From Escherichia coli (GTDB lineage Bacteria; Pseudomonadota; Gammaproteobacteria; Enterobacterales; Enterobacteriaceae), in assembly GCF_003790525.1 (NCBI RefSeq), contig NZ_CP033635.1: a stretch of 64,000 nt of DNA; one strand, written 5' to 3'. Both the position numbers and the translations under genes were made by a program. The first letter of the stretch is position 1; every line of letters begins with the position of its first letter. The notes beneath the pieces are model-generated. The model did no database searches. It saw nothing but the letters and a program-made list of their open reading frames with translations, and was not told the DNA's origin. Shown one piece after another: positions 1-31,212 of the stretch.

Positions 1-1
1 A

Positions 2-3000
2 ACAACCACCATCAAAAATGGCGGTGAGCAAAGAGTATATGAGAGCCGTGCGCTGGACACTACGATTGAAGGCGGAACTCAGTCTCTGAATAGTAATTCA
101 ACGGCAAAAAATACGCAGATCTATTCTGGTGGTACGCAAATTGTTGATTACACCAGCACCTCGGATGTTATTGAAATTTATTCCGGTGGCGTGCTTGATG
201 TTAGAGGTGGTATGGCAACAAATGTTACTCAGCACGATGGAGCCGCTTTAAAAGTAACGACTTACGATTTGACGGTGAGCGGTACGAATAGTGAAGGGGC
301 ATTCTCCATCCACAATAACGTGGCAGACAATGTGTTGCTGGAAAACGGTGGTCATTTAGACGTATATGGTTCGGCAACCAGGACGATAATTAAAGATAAA
401 GGAACAATGTCAGTTTTAACGAATGCTAAAGCTGATGCGACCCGAATAGATAATGGCGGGGTTATGGATGTCGCCGGAAACGCGACCAATACCATAATCA
501 ATGGTGGTACACAGAATATTAATAATCATGGTATTGCCACTGGCACCAATATCAACAGTGGAACGCAAAATATCAAGAGCGGCGGGAAAGCTGACACGAC
601 AAATATATCCTCCGGGAGCCGGCAGATTGTTGAGAAAGATGGTACGGCAACTGGCAGCAATATTAGCGCTGGAGGCTCGCTGATTGTCTATACCGGCGGT
701 ATTGCACATGGGGTTAACCAGGAGACGGGCAGTGCTTTAGTTGCCAACACGGGCGCAGGGACTGATATCGAAGGATACAACAAGCTCTCTCGCTTCACTA
801 TTATCGGAGGAGAGGCTAATTATGTTGTGCTGGAAAATACCGGCGAACTGACGGTAGTGGCTAAAACCTCGGCGAAAAATACTACCATTGATGCTGGCGG
901 TAAGCTGATTGTCCAGAAGGAGGCTAAAACAGATAGCACCAGACTTAATAATGGCGGCGTTCTGGAGGTTCAGGACGGTGGTGAGGCTAAGCATGTTGAG
1001 CAACAATCCGGCGGCGCATTAATTGCTTCCACGACCTCCGGAACACTTATCGAAGGAACCAACAGTTATGGTGATGCTTTCTACATCAGGAATTCAGAAG
1101 CTAAAAATGTAGTGCTGGAAAACGCTGGCTCATTAACAGTCGTCACTGGTTCCCGGGCAGTTGACACGATTATTAATGCCAACGGCAAAATGGATGTTTA
1201 TGGAAAAGATGTTGGTACTGTACTTAATAGTGCGGGTACCCAAACAATATATGCCAGTGCCACTTCTGAAAAAGCAAATATCAAAGGTGGCAAGCAAACG
1301 GTATATGGTTTAGCCACTGAGGCAAATATCGAAAGTGGTGAACAAATTGTTGATGGTGGGTCAACAGATAAAACGCACATCAAAGGCGGCACGCAAACCG
1401 TTCAGAATTATGGTAAGGCGATCAATACCGATATCGTCTCTGGCCTACAACAAATTATGGCAAACGGGACAGCGGAAGGTTCCATTATTAATGGCGGTTC
1501 ACAGGTAGTTAATGAGGGCGGTCTGGCTGAAAACTCGGTACTTAATGACGGCGGCACACTCGATGTGCGGGAGAAAGGCAGCGCTACGGGGATACAGCAG
1601 AGTAGCCAGGGCGCGTTGGTGGCAACCACCAGAGCGACGCGGGTCACAGGGACACGCGCTGATGGCGTCGCGTTCAGCATCGAGCAGGGTGCGGCGAACA
1701 ATATCCTGCTGACAAATGGCGGCGTGTTAACCGTGGAGTCAGACACCTCTTCCGCCAAAACACAGGTCAATGCGGGCGGGCGGGAGATCGTCAAAACAAA
1801 AGCCACTGCGACAGGCACGACGCTCACCGGCGGCGAACAAATCGTCGAGGGTGTGGCGAATGAGACAACGATTAACGACGGCGGAATACAAACAGTTTCG
1901 GCTAACGGTGAGGCAGTAAAAACAACGATTAATGAAGGCGGTACGCTGACAGTCAACGATAATGGCAAAGCGACAGATATCATCCAGAACAGCGGTGCCG
2001 CTCTCCAGACGAGCACGGCTAACGGTATTGAAATCAGCGGTACTCACCAGTACGGCACCTTTTCCATTGCCGGAAATTTAGCGACCAATGCGTTGCTGGA
2101 AAATGGCGGTAATTTATTGGTATTAGCAGGTACCGAAGCCCGTGACTCCACGGTTGGCAAGGGTGGTGCAATGCAAAACCTGGGTCAGGACTCCGCCACA
2201 AAGGTTAACTCTGGCGGGCAATATACCCTTGGGCGGTCAAAAGATGAGTTTCAGGCTCTGGCCCGGGCAGAAGATCTCCAGGTCGCTGGCGGGACGGCAA
2301 TCGTCTATGCAGGTACGCTGGCGGATGCATCGGTCAGTGGCGCGACAGGAAGCCTGTCGTTAATGACGCCACGGGATAATGTTACGCCAGTTAAACTCGA
2401 AGGGGCGATCCGGATTACCGATAGCGCGACATTAACTATCGGAAATGGCGTCGATACGACGCTTACCGACCTGACGGCTGCCAGCCGGGGCAGTGTCTGG
2501 CTTAACAGCAATAATTCCTGTGCAGGTACCAGCAACTGCGAATATAGAGTAAACAGTTTGCTCCTCAACGACGGTGATGTTTATTTATCAGCACAAACAG
2601 CAGCGCCTGCCACAACTAACGGTATCTACAATACGCTGACAACCAGTGAACTTTCCGGCAGCGGTAATTTCTACCTGCATACCAACGTTGCAGGCTCCCG
2701 GGGCGATCAACTGGTCGTCAACAACAACGCCACTGGTAATTTTAAAATCTTTGTTCAGGATACCGGCGTCAGCCCTCAGTCTGACGACGCGATGACGCTG
2801 GTGAAAACAGGGGGAGGGGATGCTTCGTTTACGCTGGGTAATACCGGCGGTTTCGTTGATCTTGGGACCTATGAGTATGTCCTGAAAAGCGACGGCAACA
2901 GCAACTGGAACCTGACCAATGATGTCAAACCCAACCCGGACCCCAACCCAAATCCGAAGCCGGATCCAAAACCAGACCCAAAACCGGATCCGAAACCAGA

Positions 3001-3955
3001 CCCGACTCCCGATCCAACGCCGACACCCGTCCCGGAGAAACGCATCACGCCTTCTACGGCAGCCGTACTCAATATGGCAGCAACATTACCGTTGGTCTTT
3101 GATGCTGAGCTAAACAGTATTCGCGAGCGGTTGAACATAATGAAAGCGAGTCCACACAACAATAATGTCTGGGGGACGACGTATAACACCCGTAATAATG
3201 TCACCACCGATGCGGGTGCCGGGTTTGAGCAGACGCTGACCGGAATGACGGTGGGGATCGATAGCCGTAATGATATTCCTGAGGGGATTGCGACGCTGGG
3301 CGCTTTTATGGGTTATTCCCATTCACATATCGGTTTTGATCGTGGAGGACATGGCAGTGTGGGCAGTTATTCTCTGGGGGGCTATGCCAGCTGGGAACAT
3401 GAAAGTGGTTTCTATCTGGACGGTATCGTGAAGCTGAACCGCTTTGAAAGTAACGTAGCCGGTAAAATGAGCAGCGGTGGAGCCGCCAACGGCAGTTATC
3501 GCAGCAACGGGCTGGGCGGTCACATTGAAACCGGGATGCGATTTACCGATGGTAACTGGAACCTGACGCCGTATGCATCGTTAACGGGGTTCACCGCTGA
3601 TAACCCCGAATATCATTTATCCAATGGCATGGAATCGAAATCAGTCGATACCCGCAGTATATATCGTGAACTGGGCGCAACGCTGAGTTACAACATGCGT
3701 CTGGGGAACGGCATGGAAGTTGAGCCGTGGCTGAAGGCGGCTGTGCGCAAAGAATTTGTCGATGATAACCGGGTGAAAGTGAATAATGACGGTAATTTTG
3801 TCAATGATTTGTCGGGCAGACGTGGAATATACCAGGCAGGTATTAAAGCCTCATTCAGCAGTTCGTTAAGCGGGAATCTCGGGGTGGGGTATAGCCATGG
3901 TGCCGGTGTGGAATCCCCGTGGAACGCAGTGGCTGGTGTGAACTGGTCGTTCTGA
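2..3955 (+). CDS. AIDA-I-type autotransporter adhesin, 5'-partial (reading frame open to the window edge)
   Basis: Frame is open from position 2 with no stop, so the gene starts upstream of the window. Repetitive Gly/Thr/Asn-rich beta-helix-like passenger, Pro-rich PNPDPK linker, C-terminal beta-barrel domain ending in ...NWSF. By position next to ssrA it may be the ypjA ortholog, but that is inferred from context only. Confidence 0.8.
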   Translation, partial: TTTIKNGGEQRVYESRALDTTIEGGTQSLNSNSTAKNTQIYSGGTQIVDYTSTSDVIEIYSGGVLDVRGGMATNVTQHDGAALKVTTYDLTVSGTNSEGAFSIHNNVADNVLLENGGHLDVYGSATRTIIKDKGTMSVLTNAKADATRIDNGGVMDVAGNATNTIINGGTQNINNHGIATGTNINSGTQNIKSGGKADTTNISSGSRQIVEKDGTATGSNISAGGSLIVYTGGIAHGVNQETGSALVANTGAGTDIEGYNKLSRFTIIGGEANYVVLENTGELTVVAKTSAKNTTIDAGGKLIVQKEAKTDSTRLNNGGVLEVQDGGEAKHVEQQSGGALIASTTSGTLIEGTNSYGDAFYIRNSEAKNVVLENAGSLTVVTGSRAVDTIINANGKMDVYGKDVGTVLNSAGTQTIYASATSEKANIKGGKQTVYGLATEANIESGEQIVDGGSTDKTHIKGGTQTVQNYGKAINTDIVSGLQQIMANGTAEGSIINGGSQVVNEGGLAENSVLNDGGTLDVREKGSATGIQQSSQGALVATTRATRVTGTRADGVAFSIEQGAANNILLTNGGVLTVESDTSSAKTQVNAGGREIVKTKATATGTTLTGGEQIVEGVANETTINDGGIQTVSANGEAVKTTINEGGTLTVNDNGKATDIIQNSGAALQTSTANGIEISGTHQYGTFSIAGNLATNALLENGGNLLVLAGTEARDSTVGKGGAMQNLGQDSATKVNSGGQYTLGRSKDEFQALARAEDLQVAGGTAIVYAGTLADASVSGATGSLSLMTPRDNVTPVKLEGAIRITDSATLTIGNGVDTTLTDLTAASRGSVWLNSNNSCAGTSNCEYRVNSLLLNDGDVYLSAQTAAPATTNGIYNTLTTSELSGSGNFYLHTNVAGSRGDQLVVNNNATGNFKIFVQDTGVSPQSDDAMTLVKTGGGDASFTLGNTGGFVDLGTYEYVLKSDGNSNWNLTNDVKPNPDPNPNPKPDPKPDPKPDPKPDPTPDPTPTPVPEKRITPSTAAVLNMAATLPLVFDAELNSIRERLNIMKASPHNNNVWGTTYNTRNNVTTDAGAGFEQTLTGMTVGIDSRNDIPEGIATLGAFMGYSHSHIGFDRGGHGSVGSYSLGGYASWEHESGFYLDGIVKLNRFESNVAGKMSSGGAANGSYRSNGLGGHIETGMRFTDGNWNLTPYASLTGFTADNPEYHLSNGMESKSVDTRSIYRELGATLSYNMRLGNGMEVEPWLKAAVRKEFVDDNRVKVNNDGNFVNDLSGRRGIYQAGIKASFSSSLSGNLGVGYSHGAGVESPWNAVAGVNWSF

Positions 3956-4115
3956 CCATCAACGAAAAAGCCCACATCTGTGGGCTTTCATATCACCAGG
4001 AGCCGCGGCTCCTTTGCGTATCCTTTTTTGTCTCCTCACCGTCTGGTCGGTGTCCTGCTGAGACTGCTAACTTCCTGTTTTTATTGGTGTTGTCCTTACA
4101 CCGTCCAATCATGAT

Positions 4116-4478
4116 TGGTGGAGCTGGCGGGAGTTGAACCCGCGTCCGAAATTCCTACATCCTCGGTACTACATGCTTAGTCAGTCTTTACATTCGCTTG
4201 CCAGCTGCGGACGGACACGCCACTAACAAACTAGCCTGATTAAGTTTTAACGCTTCAACCCCAGGCAGGGCTTCCACGCGATCTCTTTTGGGTTTGACCT
4301 CTCTTGATCCCCGTCCTAAGAGCGGAGGCTAGGGAGAGAGGGCTCTAAGCAGGTTATTAAGCTGCTAAAGCGTAGTTTTCGTCGTTTGCGACTATTTTTT
4401 GCGGCTTTTTACGAGGCCAACCGCCCCTCGGCATGCACCTTGGGTTTCGCAAATCCCGTCGAATCCAGAATCAGCCCC
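4116..4478 (-). ncRNA. ssrA: tmRNA (SsrA), 363 nt
   Basis: Reverse complement reads GGGGCTGATTCTGGATTCGACGGG ... CCAGCTCCACCA and contains the tag reading frame encoding ANDENYALAA; sits downstream of smpB as expected. Confidence 0.95.
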
Positions 4479-4692
4479 AATGTGTGACGGTAAGTATACC
4501 AGATTCATGAGTGCCATGACCAGCCTCAATGGCGTTATCATTAAAGATTTAGCACCCATGTAGCCTGATTTTTATTCGATTAAGCAATGGGATGGCAACA
4601 TTTGTGTCGGAAGTGATAGCCAATAAGATGTTCATTCGCGCCGCCGGAGAGGGAGGCGCGGTGAGGAACTGGTCAATAATTGCAGTGCAGGT

Positions 4693-5175
4693 TTAACGGT
4701 GGGCGTTTTTCATGATACGCGCTTTATCCACCTGCCATTCGCGTTCTTTGATATCTGAACGTTTATCATGCTGTTTCTTACCTTTGGCGACGCCGATTTT
4801 TACTTTGCACCAGGCATTTTTCCAGTACAGGGAGAGCGCCACTACGGTATAGCCTTCTCGATTGACGCGACCGTACAATGAGTCCAGTTCGCGCTGGTTG
4901 AGAAGTAACTTGCGGGTACGGGTAGGATCGCACACCACATGCGTGGAGGCCACAGCCATTGGCGTGATGTTAGCGCCAAACAGAAATGCCTCTCCGTCAC
5001 GCAGAAGGACGTAGCTGTCGCTGATATTGGCTTTTCCTGCGCGCAGGGATTTAACCTCCCAGCCTTGCAGGGCAAGTCCCGCCTCGAACTCTTCTTCGAT
5101 AAAGTATTCGTGACGGGCGCGCTTGTTAAGCGCGATGGTCGCTGAACCAGGTTTATGTGCTTTTTTCTTCGTCAT
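4693..5175 (-). CDS. smpB: SsrA-binding protein SmpB
   Basis: 160-aa [51 protein letters not shown]... recognised as SmpB; adjacent to ssrA. Confidence 0.95.
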
Positions 5176-9960: not shown

Positions 9961-9990
9961 ATGGCCGACGCGAAGTCGGCCATTTTTTTA
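9961..9990. terminator. intrinsic terminator shared by grpE and the convergent acidic ORF
   Basis: ATGGCCGACGCGAAGTCGGCCAT hairpin followed by TTTTTTT on the plus strand; the stop codon of the minus-strand ORF lies in the T-run. Confidence 0.75.
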
Positions 9991-10629
9991 GCTTAAAAAA
10001 TCCTGTACTTCCAGCCACGGCGTGTTGAAATCATCTATTTTTTTATATTCGTTCATTGGCAGAACGACCACGTTATAGGTGTCAGATCCTTCATTCAGAT
10101 CAAAAATCTGAAAGCCCCTTTTATTGAGTTCGGTTTGGATGCGTTCAAAGATTTCGTCAAGGTAACGGTCTCCGGCTTCACAGACATCGGAGATTTCATC
10201 CTCTTGGGTTATTTCGACAAGAAGACTCCTTAATTCCTCAGAAGCTGTCAGGTTTTTTGTGAGCTCATAAAAGCGATCTGCAGCAAAATTAGCCAGCTCA
10301 CCTTCTTCATCTTCACCTTTCCAGTCAACGAGTTGAATTAGTCCTTCACCGCGCAGAACCTGTAAAAATGCCTGCGCCAGGTCATGATTTCCGAGATCGC
10401 CTCCACTGCAATCGAGAACGTCTTGTAATCCATATTCGTCTTCATCTTCGTCTTCAAAGATTTCAGGTTGCGTCGAAAGTTGAGAGAAAATAGTGGGCCA
10501 TAAGGTTGGGGTGTGCTGTAAAAAAACGCTGGCGACGACGTTGAGATCGTCTGCAAAATCCTTATCCCATTCAATTAAATAATCTTCTGACATAACATCA
10601 ATATCCTTTCCGAATGTTTGAAAAGACAT
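9988..10629 (-). CDS. hypothetical highly acidic cytoplasmic protein (213 aa), unrecognised, probably accessory
   Basis: Intact ORF; 51 Asp+Glu versus about 13 Lys+Arg; EDEDEDE run; no signal peptide or TM segment; no motif I recognise. Not part of the K-12 grpE-yfjD arrangement as I recall it. Start may be 10629 (no Shine-Dalgarno) or the Met at 10593 (AAGGA about 10 nt upstream). Confidence 0.6.
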   Translation of the reverse strand: MSFQTFGKDIDVMSEDYLIEWDKDFADDLNVVASVFLQHTPTLWPTIFSQLSTQPEIFEDEDEDEYGLQDVLDCSGGDLGNHDLAQAFLQVLRGEGLIQLVDWKGEDEEGELANFAADRFYELTKNLTASEELRSLLVEITQEDEISDVCEAGDRYLDEIFERIQTELNKRGFQIFDLNEGSDTYNVVVLPMNEYKKIDDFNTPWLEVQDFLS

Positions 10630-31136: not shown

Positions 31137-31212
31137 GTCCCCTTCGTCTAGAGGCCCAGGACACCGCCCTTTCACGGCGGTAACAGGGGTTCGAATCCCC
31201 TAGGGGACGCCA
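31137..31212 (+). tRNA. gltW: tRNA-Glu (spacer tRNA)
   Basis: GTCCCCTTCGTCTAGAGGCCCAGGACACCGCCCTTTCACGGCGGTAACAGGGGTTCGAATCCCCTAGGGGACGCCA. Confidence 0.95.

What the first reader, a model, noticed from the sequence alone, without database searches (positions are those of the whole stretch)
3956..4478. Unoccupied tmRNA (ssrA) 3' integration site with the autotransporter only about 160 bp away
The 3' end of ssrA is one of the most heavily used attachment sites for prophages and genomic islands (K-12 carries the CP4-57 cryptic prophage there). Here no integrase, attachment-site repeat or phage gene follows ssrA; the large autotransporter gene ends at 3955 and ssrA's 3' end is at 4116. This locus therefore looks like the ancestral, island-free state, and the autotransporter is chromosomal backbone rather than island cargo.
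Basis: partly seen in the sequence, partly recalled or inferred. Interest (0 to 1): 0.45.

Follow-up and report, generated by a model that had tools for sequence, protein, structure and literature searches.

The report
Empty tmRNA integration site, not ancestral
The tmRNA gene of this E. coli strain has no prophage or island at its integration site, as in about a quarter of E. coli, but the neighbouring autotransporter belongs to an old 10.7-kb accessory insertion, so the locus is ordinary and is not the ancestral island-free state.

Summary
Observation confirmed. An intact ssrA (tmRNA) lies at 4116..4478 (- strand). ypjA/ehaD stops at 3955. The 160 bp between them hold no integrase, no phage gene and no copy of the ssrA 3' end. 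The window is E. coli SC516 (100% identity). Up to 1519 of 5426 complete E. coli genomes share the uninterrupted ssrA-spacer-ypjA junction. K-12 has CP4-57 inserted exactly at the ssrA 3' end, so the site is an unoccupied attB.

About 1050-1100 E. coli genomes (NC101, ST131) and E. whittamii have ssrA-spacer-~0.5 kb-glaH. They have no ypjA, invertase fragment, ypjCB, ileY or ygaQ. In the window's lineage a 10.7-kb block beginning with ypjA replaces about 320 bp of that shared filler. ypjA is therefore old accessory DNA, not backbone. Only 45% of genomes keep at least 80% of it, and no orthologue was found outside E. coli.

The spacer is also not neutral. Its 151 nt form a four-hairpin ssrA trailer with a terminator and show covariation. 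The same module, fused to an ssrA 3' fragment, sits in the attP of LLS-like lambdoid phages in several enterobacterial genera. Trailer alleles appear to be exchanged between phages and chromosomes. Low-to-moderate interest.

The parts
4116..4478 (-). ssrA (tmRNA), intact, tag ANDENYALAA, T357 present
   Evidence: ARAGORN; Rfam RF00023 at 295.8 bits, full length; annotated ssrA in SC516
4493..4522 (-). sigma-70-like promoter upstream of ssrA (TGGTCA-18-TATACT with extended TG)
   Evidence: Consensus scan; a pattern match only, and the count is no higher than in shuffles
4116..4144 (-). Unoccupied attB core region: the last 29 nt of ssrA are identical to the phage LLS attP segment, and the last ~23 nt are repeated in decayed form at K-12 CP4-57 attR
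   Evidence: Alignment A1; K-12 ypjA-side match starts at window 4138; LLS paper PMC12315714
3965..4115 (-). 151-nt structured ssrA 3' trailer with terminator, homologous to the attP arm of LLS-like lambdoid phages. Homology to all phage copies, NC101 and E. whittamii ends at 3965
4086..4102 (-). Trailer hairpin H1 (GGTGT/ACACC), the covarying helix
   Evidence: Pair 14-30 GC42/AU37; pair 18-26 AU40/UA22/CG19
4037..4052 (-). Trailer hairpin H2 (CACCG/CGGTG)
   Evidence: Predicted by RNAalifold and by the single-sequence fold. It lies inside the search motif, so variation could not be assessed. The Klebsiella relative L160 has CACTAAC/GTTAGTG
3999..4012 (-). Trailer hairpin/palindrome H3 (GGAGCCGCGGCTCC)
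   Evidence: The NC101 allele has the compensatory GGAGTCGCGACTCC
3965..3988 (-). Intrinsic terminator of the ssrA transcript (AAAGCCCAC-AGAT-GTGGGCTTT, then T-run)
   Evidence: Fold. Compensatory pair GC71/AU11 separates phage-borne from ypjA-linked copies. The simple terminator scanner did not call it
1..3955 (+). 3' 3955 bp of ypjA/ehaD (AIDA-type autotransporter adhesin), convergent with ssrA. It is the first gene of a 10.7-kb accessory block that continues beyond the window start
   Evidence: NCBIfam autotransporter barrel and AIDA/Ag43 repeats; PGAP annotation; block limits from the NC101 comparison
4693..5175 (-). smpB, the backbone gene upstream of ssrA
   Evidence: NCBIfam equivalog at 222 bits

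Best explanation
Positions 3956-4478 hold an intact tmRNA gene whose 3' end is an unoccupied attachment site (attB). At least two unrelated integrase families use this site: P4/CP4-57-type islands and LLS-type lambdoid phages. The 151 nt after the CCA end are the ssrA 3' trailer. It has an AU-rich single-stranded start, three hairpins and an intrinsic terminator. I infer that it ends the strong ssrA transcript and permits 3' maturation. LLS-like phages carry the same module in attP, fused to the last 25-39 nt of ssrA, so that integration rebuilds ssrA together with a working trailer. Because attL and attR then share about 180 bp, trailer alleles can be exchanged between phage and chromosome. 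The site is empty, but the locus is not the ancestral island-free state. That state is ssrA-trailer-~0.5 kb-glaH, as in NC101/ST131-type E. coli and in E. whittamii. In the window's lineage a 10.7-kb accessory block (ypjA, a 39-aa ORF, a pin invertase fragment, the ypjCB pseudogene, tRNA-Ile2 ileY and ygaQ) was fixed immediately after the terminator. ypjA is therefore old, immobilised accessory DNA that lies outside the currently mobile islands. Shown here: the coordinates, the emptiness of the site, the junction classes and their counts, the homology to phage attP, the structure covariation, and the block indel with its polarity. Inferred: the trailer's role in termination and processing, how alleles are exchanged, and how the block arrived.
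For: Identity and emptiness. K-12 attL/attR against this attB: with ΔT357 on excision from PMC10107115. Each element family brings its own arm after CCA: the CP4-57-type arm is identical in E. coli and Klebsiella, and scars without an integrase occur in L159 and L161. Trailer in phage attP: LLS 90%, phiNP 88%, Ayreon 87% and the CT01 phage 84-86%. It always sits 62 nt after an ssrA 3' copy. About 86 of 120 IMG/VR loci carry it without ypjA. Int lies just upstream in attP-type and attR-type loci. Structure: 97.1% of cells paired against 35-48% for slid controls, with H1 covariation, z = -3.46, and compensatory changes in H3 and the terminator. Block polarity: E. whittamii and NC101 are collinear from ssrA to glaH; SC516 homology stops at L001 22536 (window 3965) and resumes at L001 33255 against NC101 or 33321 against E. 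whittamii. Counts: 1104 genomes with the filler, 1048 with the NC101-type junction, 2800 with the spacer|ypjA junction. ypjA is accessory: and 61.5% PCR prevalence in PMC10931464. GC and gene content of the block. Allele exchange: the E. whittamii trailer is 4-6 differences from E. coli prophage-borne copies, against 11 from NC101, while its backbone is about 7% diverged.
Against: Nothing contradicts the emptiness of the site. On 'derived block': ypjA itself has backbone-like GC (49.8%). The block has no target-site duplication, no terminal repeats and no att remnant at its right end, so the insertion mechanism is unknown. Ancestral presence followed by one shared loss plus filler gain cannot be formally excluded without a species tree. 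Other Escherichia species (E. albertii, E. fergusonii, E. marmotae) were not sampled at this locus. No expression data were available for the trailer's function. H2 and H3 lie inside the search motif, so most sequences cannot vary there by construction. The simple terminator scanner did not call the terminator.
Confidence: 0.8

Rival explanations
1. One reading: the locus is the ancestral, never-occupied state, and ypjA is core chromosomal backbone directly flanking ssrA.
For: No integrase, att repeat or phage gene lies in the window downstream of ssrA. ypjA lies outside CP4-57 in K-12, beyond attR. ypjA GC is 49.8%, equal to backbone. The junction is common.
Against: NC101-type E. coli (about 19-20% of complete genomes) and E. 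whittamii lack the whole ypjA-ygaQ block and share a filler sequence that the window's genome lacks. ypjA is 80% or more covered in only 45% of genomes. No orthologue was found outside E. coli, and the E. albertii hit is at the ycgV locus. The rest of the block is 31-38% GC with a pseudogene, an invertase fragment and a cargo-type tRNA.
Confidence: 0.07
2. Fossil-prophage reading. The trailer and the ypjA block together are the left end (attL arm, cargo, tail-fibre invertase) of an ancient LLS-like lambdoid prophage that integrated into ssrA. Its right part (int, attR, the original trailer and about 320 bp of filler) was later deleted, so ypjA would be former phage cargo.
For: The left boundary of the block coincides to the base with the arm/cargo boundary in every phage copy (L001 22536 = window 3965). 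Intact phages have a Fin/Pin invertase on the opposite strand 2.1-4.7 kb after CCA, and the pinH fragment lies on the same strand 3.8-5.3 kb after CCA. c1-17 shows the parallel layout ssrA-arm-cargo-pin'-tail fibres. The ypjA-linked trailer allele is a distinct, tight lineage, 15-18 differences from the NC101 allele, against about 6-8 expected from the flanking divergence. Similar right-end deletions are seen in c1-17.
Against: The block has no DNA or protein similarity to phage structural or cargo genes apart from the 55-aa invertase fragment, which is only 53-56% identical to LLS Fin. There is no attR or int remnant. The excess divergence rests on 151 nt of non-coding DNA. ypjA GC is backbone-like. 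A terminator end is also a natural breakpoint for unrelated events.
Confidence: 0.3
3. Native-trailer reading. The 151-nt trailer is original Escherichia chromosomal DNA (the natural ssrA terminator region). An ancestor of LLS-like phages captured it together with the ssrA 3' fragment, and the chromosome is the donor, not the recipient.
For: The ssrA fragment in attP must ultimately be bacterial, and the adjoining trailer could have come with it. The trailer is present in the ancestral-like state of both E. coli NC101 and E. whittamii, at 92.8% identity, similar to their backbone divergence.
Against: Phage-borne copies are much more diverse than chromosomal ones: mean 17.8 differences against 5.1, with deep variants in phiNP/Mixta and Klebsiella phages. 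In Klebsiella all ten contexts had an element-specific arm after CCA and no recognisable 'native' flank. The core motif is patchy across genera: 17 of about 100,000 species representatives, though the exact-match scan misses variants such as the B2 allele. The E. whittamii allele is nearer to E. coli prophage copies than to NC101.
Confidence: 0.3
4. Recent precise excision: an island or prophage sat at this ssrA until recently and left without a trace.
For: Precise Int/Xis excision restores attB. ssrA islands and prophages are common in close relatives.
Against: It cannot be told apart from 'never occupied' by sequence. The K-12-type excision product would lack T357 (PMC10107115), whereas the window has it. 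The trailer is the standard ypjA-linked allele, 4-7 differences from other ypjA-linked copies and 8 or more from any phage-borne copy, so there is no sign of a recent LLS-like visit leaving a phage allele.
Confidence: 0.1

Closest known systems
CP4-57 attachment site at ssrA in E. coli K-12 (attL/attR; IntA/AlpA-driven excision)
   Same: Same gene, same insertion point at the ssrA 3' end, and the same right-hand flank: K-12 attR is a decayed ssrA 3' copy followed by this trailer and ypjA.
   Different: Here the site is empty and ssrA is wild type. The K-12 excision product loses T357 and inactivates tmRNA (PMC10107115), so the window is a naturally intact attB and not the equivalent of ΔCP4-57. 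The CP4-57-type arm and terminator are unrelated in sequence to this trailer.
attP of lambdoid phage LLS and relatives (phiNP, Ayreon, c1-17 prophage, many IMG/VR prophages)
   Same: The last 29 nt of ssrA and the next ~151 nt are 84-97% identical to the phage attP arm, in the same register and with the same hairpins and terminator.
   Different: In the window the module is followed by ypjA, not by phage cargo, and no Int gene is nearby. The LLS paper (PMC12315714) reports only a 29-bp identity, because K-12 has CP4-57 between ssrA and this flank.
3' trailers and intrinsic terminators of stable-RNA genes (pre-tmRNA 3' processing by RNase E and exonucleases; from my own knowledge of Lin-Chao et al. 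1999 and Li et al. 1998, not verified here)
   Same: An AU-rich single-stranded start directly after CCA, then hairpins and a GC-stem/U-run terminator on the ssrA strand.
   Different: The processing sites were defined in K-12, whose trailer is CP4-57-derived. No experimental data exist for this trailer. It is longer (about 150 nt) and carries three extra conserved hairpins.
tRNA/tmRNA-gene integration hot spots with tandem and decayed islands
   Same: Multiple element families target one gene. Tandem arrays occur (c1-17: a prophage followed by a P4-type island), and scars retain only the element arm (Klebsiella L159 and L161).
   Different: The ypjA block has no recognisable att or int remnant, so its membership as a former ssrA island is inferred from its position and its distribution only.

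Membership tests
Unoccupied tmRNA-gene attB | Intact, full-length tmRNA gene | tested here: met
   ARAGORN and Rfam at 295.8 bits, model positions 1-374
Unoccupied tmRNA-gene attB | No integrase or mobile-element gene between the gene's 3' end and the conserved flank | tested here: met
   Only 160 bp without a credible ORF lies before ypjA. A 1-nt indel among copies breaks the 44-aa antisense ORF
Unoccupied tmRNA-gene attB | No direct repeat of the 3' end (attL/attR pair) | tested here: met
   window; 24 kb downstream in the source genome
Unoccupied tmRNA-gene attB | The same junction is split by elements in other strains, with duplication of the 3' end | tested here: met
   K-12 CP4-57; E2 island; c1-17 prophage with a 32-bp copy; attR-type loci with Int
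Core chromosomal backbone (claim made for ypjA) | Present at this locus throughout the species and in sister species | tested here: not met
   Absent in about 1050-1100 of 5426 E. coli genomes and in E. whittamii; 80% or more covered in only 2456; no orthologue found outside E. coli
Core chromosomal backbone (claim made for ypjA) | Host-typical composition and no mobile-gene remnants in the segment | tested here: inconclusive
   ypjA is 49.8% GC (host-like), but the rest of the block is 31-38% GC with a pin fragment, an IS3-like 96-bp piece, a pseudogene and a CAT-anticodon tRNA
Prophage attL junction (bacterial gene + phage arm) of LLS-like lambdoid phages | Sequence after the core is homologous to the phage attP arm | tested here: met
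   84-97% identity over about 151 nt to LLS, the CT01 phage and the c1-17 and L152 prophages; 87-88% over the first ~115-120 nt to phiNP and Ayreon, which lack this terminator
Prophage attL junction (bacterial gene + phage arm) of LLS-like lambdoid phages | Phage genes follow the arm | tested here: not met
   ypjA follows. The only phage-like remnant is a 55-aa invertase fragment about 5 kb away, outside the window
Prophage attL junction (bacterial gene + phage arm) of LLS-like lambdoid phages | Arm-type Int, IHF or Xis binding sites in the arm | not testable with these tools
   No binding-site models for this integrase. The covariation points to a folded transcript, not to protein-binding sites
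Intrinsic (rho-independent) terminator | GC-rich hairpin followed by a U-run on the transcribed strand, maintained by compensatory change | tested here: met
   Nine-pair stem with a T-run at 3965-3988. Pair 139-148 is GC71/AU11. The simple scanner did not call it
Described RNA family (Rfam) for the trailer | Match at or near a gathering score | tested here: not met
   Only tmRNA itself passes; all other hits fall far below their gathering scores (best E = 0.028)

The most novel reading that the evidence does not exclude
The 151-nt trailer could be a mobile, phage-borne structured RNA module that exploits the very strong ssrA promoter. On integration an LLS-like phage places its own trailer directly behind ssrA, so the trailer is transcribed at high level. 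It could then be processed into a stable RNA with its own function, for example modulating tmRNA maturation, acting as a lysogeny-associated sRNA, or insulating prophage cargo. Fossil or exchanged copies, like the one in this window, would still produce it. In addition, the ~180-bp attP-attB homology would allow RecA-dependent, Int-independent integration, excision and allele swapping.
Probability: 0.12. Interest if true: 0.6.

Novelty: already known. Interest (0 to 1): 0.27.

Why it matters
As reported, the finding is ordinary: ssrA is a known integration hot spot, and many E. coli strains lack CP4-57. The follow-up has two uses. First, it corrects an easy annotation mistake: "no integrase next to the tRNA/tmRNA gene" does not mean "ancestral backbone". 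The real island-free reference for this locus is the NC101/ST131-type ssrA-trailer-glaH arrangement, and ypjA/ehaD (used as a 'supplementary virulence gene' marker) is part of a fixed accessory block. Second, it shows that attP of a widespread group of lambdoid phages shares not 29 bp but about 180 bp with the natural E. coli site, including a covarying structured trailer. K-12 hides this because CP4-57 separates ssrA from that flank. This bears on choosing hosts for integration studies, on prophage boundary calling (31 of 120 IMG/VR hits were host flank swept into prophage predictions), and on how ssrA transcription is terminated in non-K-12 strains.

Tried and rejected
1. Scar search. I looked for partial copies of the ssrA 3' end and of the spacer in the window and in 24 kb downstream in SC516. 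Only chance-level matches appeared.

2. Other element arms. I searched between ypjA and glaH for CP4-57-type, E2-type and four other arm types. The only weak hit is the ileY tRNA, which resembles the tRNA-like end of tmRNA.

3. Phage similarity of the block. I compared the ypjA-ygaQ block with the phage ends (LLS, phiNP, Ayreon, CT01, c1-17) at DNA and translated level. Nothing matched except the invertase fragment and a 96-bp IS3-like piece.

4. PHROGs search of the block's small ORFs. The call failed because of stop codons in the pseudogene, and I did not repeat it.

5. Rfam at a permissive threshold on the spacer. No family matched.

6. Coding potential of the 44-aa and 72-aa ORFs overlapping the spacer. 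I rejected them: a 1-nt indel and the substitutions among copies do not respect a reading frame.

7. Reaching Salmonella and Cronobacter ssrA through SmpB. This failed because an SPI-9-like bapABCD locus lies between smpB and ssrA there.

8. The E. albertii YpjA-like protein (53% identity). It sits at the ycgV/minCDE locus and is a paralogue.

9. E. whittamii as proof on its own of ancestral absence. I first doubted this because its trailer is of the phage type and its filler had no hit among the held loci. It was resolved when the filler turned out to be orthologous chromosomal DNA in 1104 E. coli genomes and absent from the phage collection.

10. Target-site duplication or terminal repeats at the block ends. 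None were found.

11. The exact-motif scan of species genomes as a measure of distribution. It is only a lower bound, because one SNP (for example in the B2 allele) removes a hit.

12. Two further SmpB loci. An Escherichia sp. MAG was occupied by a P4-type integrase, and Cronobacter was uninformative for the native flank.

Full report
**1. The observation**

The window is the reverse complement of E. coli SC516 (chicken liver isolate, NZ_CP025048.1), matched at 100% identity over 6.5 kb.
- ARAGORN finds a tmRNA at 4116..4478 on the - strand with tag ANDENYALAA. Rfam RF00023 matches it end to end at 295.8 bits.
- smpB (4693..5175, -) lies upstream, followed by ratA, yfjF, bamE and recN.
- On the + strand the ypjA/ehaD frame ends with a TGA at 3953-3955 and is convergent with ssrA. 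The frame is open from window base 2, and the full gene is 4569 bp in SC516. The '191' start in the ORF list is therefore an artefact.
- The 160-bp spacer (3956-4115) holds no credible ORF.
- The ssrA 3' 25-mer with up to 3 mismatches occurs only at its own position, and 15-mer hits are at chance level.
- No decayed copy lies within 24 kb further downstream in SC516.

**2. Is the site unoccupied?**

Yes.
- A 361-nt query across ypjA-end/spacer/ssrA-end is covered at 80% or more in 1519 of 5426 complete E. coli genomes. The 6.5-kb query is covered in 1172.
- In K-12 the ypjA-side match begins about 23 nt inside ssrA. Alignment shows that K-12 attR is a decayed ssrA 3' copy (…ACTCCGCCAGC-CCACCA) followed by this same spacer and ypjA. 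K-12 attL is ssrA followed by unrelated CP4-57 DNA with its own terminator.
- The missing T in attR explains why CP4-57 excision deletes T357 and inactivates tmRNA (PMC10107115). The window has T357, so it is a naturally intact attB, not an excision product of that kind.
- Other genomes carry different P4-type islands or lambdoid prophages at the same point. Strain c1-17 has a prophage followed by a P4-type island, with a 32-bp ssrA copy between them.

**3. The spacer is not neutral DNA**

Homology to phage attP:
- Phage LLS is 90% identical over the last 25 nt of ssrA plus 151 nt of spacer, at its annotated 'tmRNA pseudogene/attP'. Citrobacter phage phiNP (88%), phage Ayreon (87%) and a circular phage-like replicon of strain CT01 (84-86%) also carry it.
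- The LLS order is xis-int-gp31-[ssrA' + spacer]-cargo-Fin invertase-tail fibres. Integration therefore places the phage's copy directly after ssrA, as seen in c1-17 and L152.
- The LLS authors reported only a 29-bp identity with ssrA (PMC12315714). K-12 hides the rest because CP4-57 intervenes.

Distribution of the conserved core:
- In almost every case it lies exactly 62 nt after an ssrA 3' copy, with or without a complete tmRNA.
- After removing 31 IMG/VR loci that are E. coli attR flank (spacer + ypjA), about 86 carry the module with other cargo. Of these, 30 have a full ssrA (attL type), 40 have a partial ssrA (attP/attR type, some with Int just upstream), and 16 have no recognisable ssrA fragment.

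Structure:
- On 87 distinct copies, a four-helix model is 97.1% paired, against 35-48% when partners are slid.
- Helix 1 shows real covariation: pair 14-30 is GC 42/AU 37, and pair 18-26 is AU 40/UA 22/CG 19. One terminator pair is GC 71/AU 11.
- The SC516 sequence alone folds into the same helices (-47.2 kcal/mol, z = -3.46).
- The B2-type allele has a compensatory GGAGTCGCGACTCC in helix 3.
- No Rfam family matches.

I read the module as the ssrA 3' trailer plus intrinsic terminator. This is inferred from its position, strand and structure.

**4. Every element brings its own arm**

Ten different Klebsiella contexts of one SmpB protein each have element-specific DNA directly after CCA:
- a CP4-57-type arm identical to K-12 attL, twice without any integrase (scars);
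- an E2-type arm and two other types;
- the LLS-type trailer at 88%, followed by S24/DinI/resolvase genes;
- two diverged relatives of the LLS-type trailer.

The sequence next to ssrA therefore generally reflects the mobile element that last occupied the site.

**5. The true island-free state, and the status of ypjA**

- In E. whittamii, homology to SC516 runs through ssrA and the trailer, stops at L001 22536 (window 3965, 10 nt before the ypjA stop) and resumes 146 bp upstream of glaH. A 430-bp filler lies in between.
- That filler is not phage DNA. It is orthologous (81-88%) to chromosomal DNA in 1104 E. coli genomes.
- In NC101 the order is smpB-ssrA-trailer-filler-glaH-lhgO-gabDTP, collinear with E. 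whittamii at 90% over 1.3 kb.
- The NC101-type junction is covered at 80% or more in 1048 genomes, including O25b:H4-ST131.
- In SC516 a 10.7-kb block (L001 22537-33254) replaces about 320 bp of filler. The block holds ypjA, a 39-aa ORF, a recombinase fragment, the ypjCB pseudogene, a CAT-anticodon tRNA annotated tRNA-Ile, and ygaQ. It has no target duplication or terminal repeats.
- Two lineages share a filler that the third lacks, so the block-bearing state is the derived one.
- ypjA is otherwise accessory. The spacer|ypjA junction is present in 2800 genomes, and 80% or more of the gene in 2456. ehaD was PCR-positive in 61.5% of isolates in one survey (PMC10931464).
- The best non-E. coli homologue (E. 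albertii, 53%) sits at the ycgV/minCDE locus.
- ypjA is 49.8% GC, but the rest of the block is 31-38%.

**6. Origin of the trailer and of the block (unresolved)**

- ypjA-linked trailers form a tight group (mean 5.1 differences per 151 nt). Phage-borne copies are far more diverse (mean 17.8, maximum 83).
- The NC101 allele is 15-18 differences from the ypjA-linked ones. That is about twice what the flanking divergence predicts (90.1% identity against 95-96%).
- The E. whittamii allele is only 4-6 differences from E. coli prophage-borne copies, although its backbone is about 7% diverged. Alleles therefore move between phages and chromosomes. A plausible route is recombination between the ~180-bp repeats that flank an integrated LLS-like prophage.
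- Two sub-hypotheses remain open. In one, the trailer and ypjA block are the left-end fossil of an LLS-like prophage. The shared boundary at 3965 and the position and strand of the pin fragment fit this. No other phage similarity and no attR remnant were found. In the other, the trailer is native Escherichia DNA that phages captured.

**7. Verdict**

The coordinates and the 'empty site' claim hold. 'Ancestral' and 'backbone' do not hold. The feature is a known kind of thing at a known hot spot. The added value is the correct empty-state reference for this locus, the accessory nature of ypjA/ehaD, and the extended, structured attP-attB homology.

Noticed in passing
window ~9988-10593 (L001 15908-16513): A DUF6630-family gene lies between yfjD and grpE in SC516, c1-17 and the Salmonella loci. 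It is absent in strain E2 (L005), NC101 and L148, so it is a small presence/absence polymorphism in otherwise conserved backbone.
   Followed up: no
L004 5982-6161 and 10176-10239 (E. coli CT01 'plasmid unnamed3'): This 43.7-kb 'plasmid' looks like a circular phage genome with a dusA-type integrase and a dusA' fragment. It still carries a relic ssrA' + trailer, plus a second partial trailer-like copy between cargo genes. This suggests an integrase-module swap, with the old attP retained.
   Followed up: partly
L156/L157 (Salmonella), L172 (Cronobacter), L022/L027 (Citrobacter, Trabulsiella): In Salmonella and Cronobacter an SPI-9-like bapABCD type I secretion locus follows smpB directly, with no tmRNA gene in between. 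In Citrobacter and Trabulsiella the T1SS transporter genes lie immediately upstream of ssrA. Both patterns indicate that smpB and ssrA are separated in these genera.
   Followed up: partly
L159 and L161 (Klebsiella): A CP4-57-type arm and terminator, identical to K-12 attL, is retained right after ssrA, but no integrase follows. T6SS genes or acetyltransferase/PTS genes follow instead, so these are scars of decayed P4-type islands.
   Followed up: partly
L170 13931-13944 (NC101 trailer helix 3): B2-type E. coli carry GGAGTCGCGACTCC where other copies have GGAGCCGCGGCTCC. This is a compensatory double change, and it also explains why the exact-motif scan of species genomes missed the E. coli representative.
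   Followed up: yes
L019 (E. whittamii) trailer: The trailer is only 4-6 differences from E. coli prophage-borne copies, against 11 from NC101, although the surrounding backbone is about 7% diverged. This is evidence that trailer alleles are exchanged between phages and chromosomes.
   Followed up: partly
L001 27522-27770 (outside the window, about 5.1 kb beyond ssrA): The recombinase (pinH-like) fragment is 53-56% identical to LLS Fin over 55 aa. Next to it is a 96-bp stretch 78% identical to IS3.
   Followed up: partly
L001 38734-41206 (outside the window): An ISApl1 (IS30-like) element splits the gabP permease gene in SC516.
   Followed up: no
window 31137-31212: A tRNA-Glu (TTC) gene; I did not examine its surroundings.
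   Followed up: no
IMG/VR loci L032-L147 (31 of 120): About a quarter of the 'viral' contigs carrying the trailer include the ypjA 3' end, meaning host flank beyond attR was swept into the prophage prediction. This is a boundary-calling artefact caused by the repeated trailer.
   Followed up: yes
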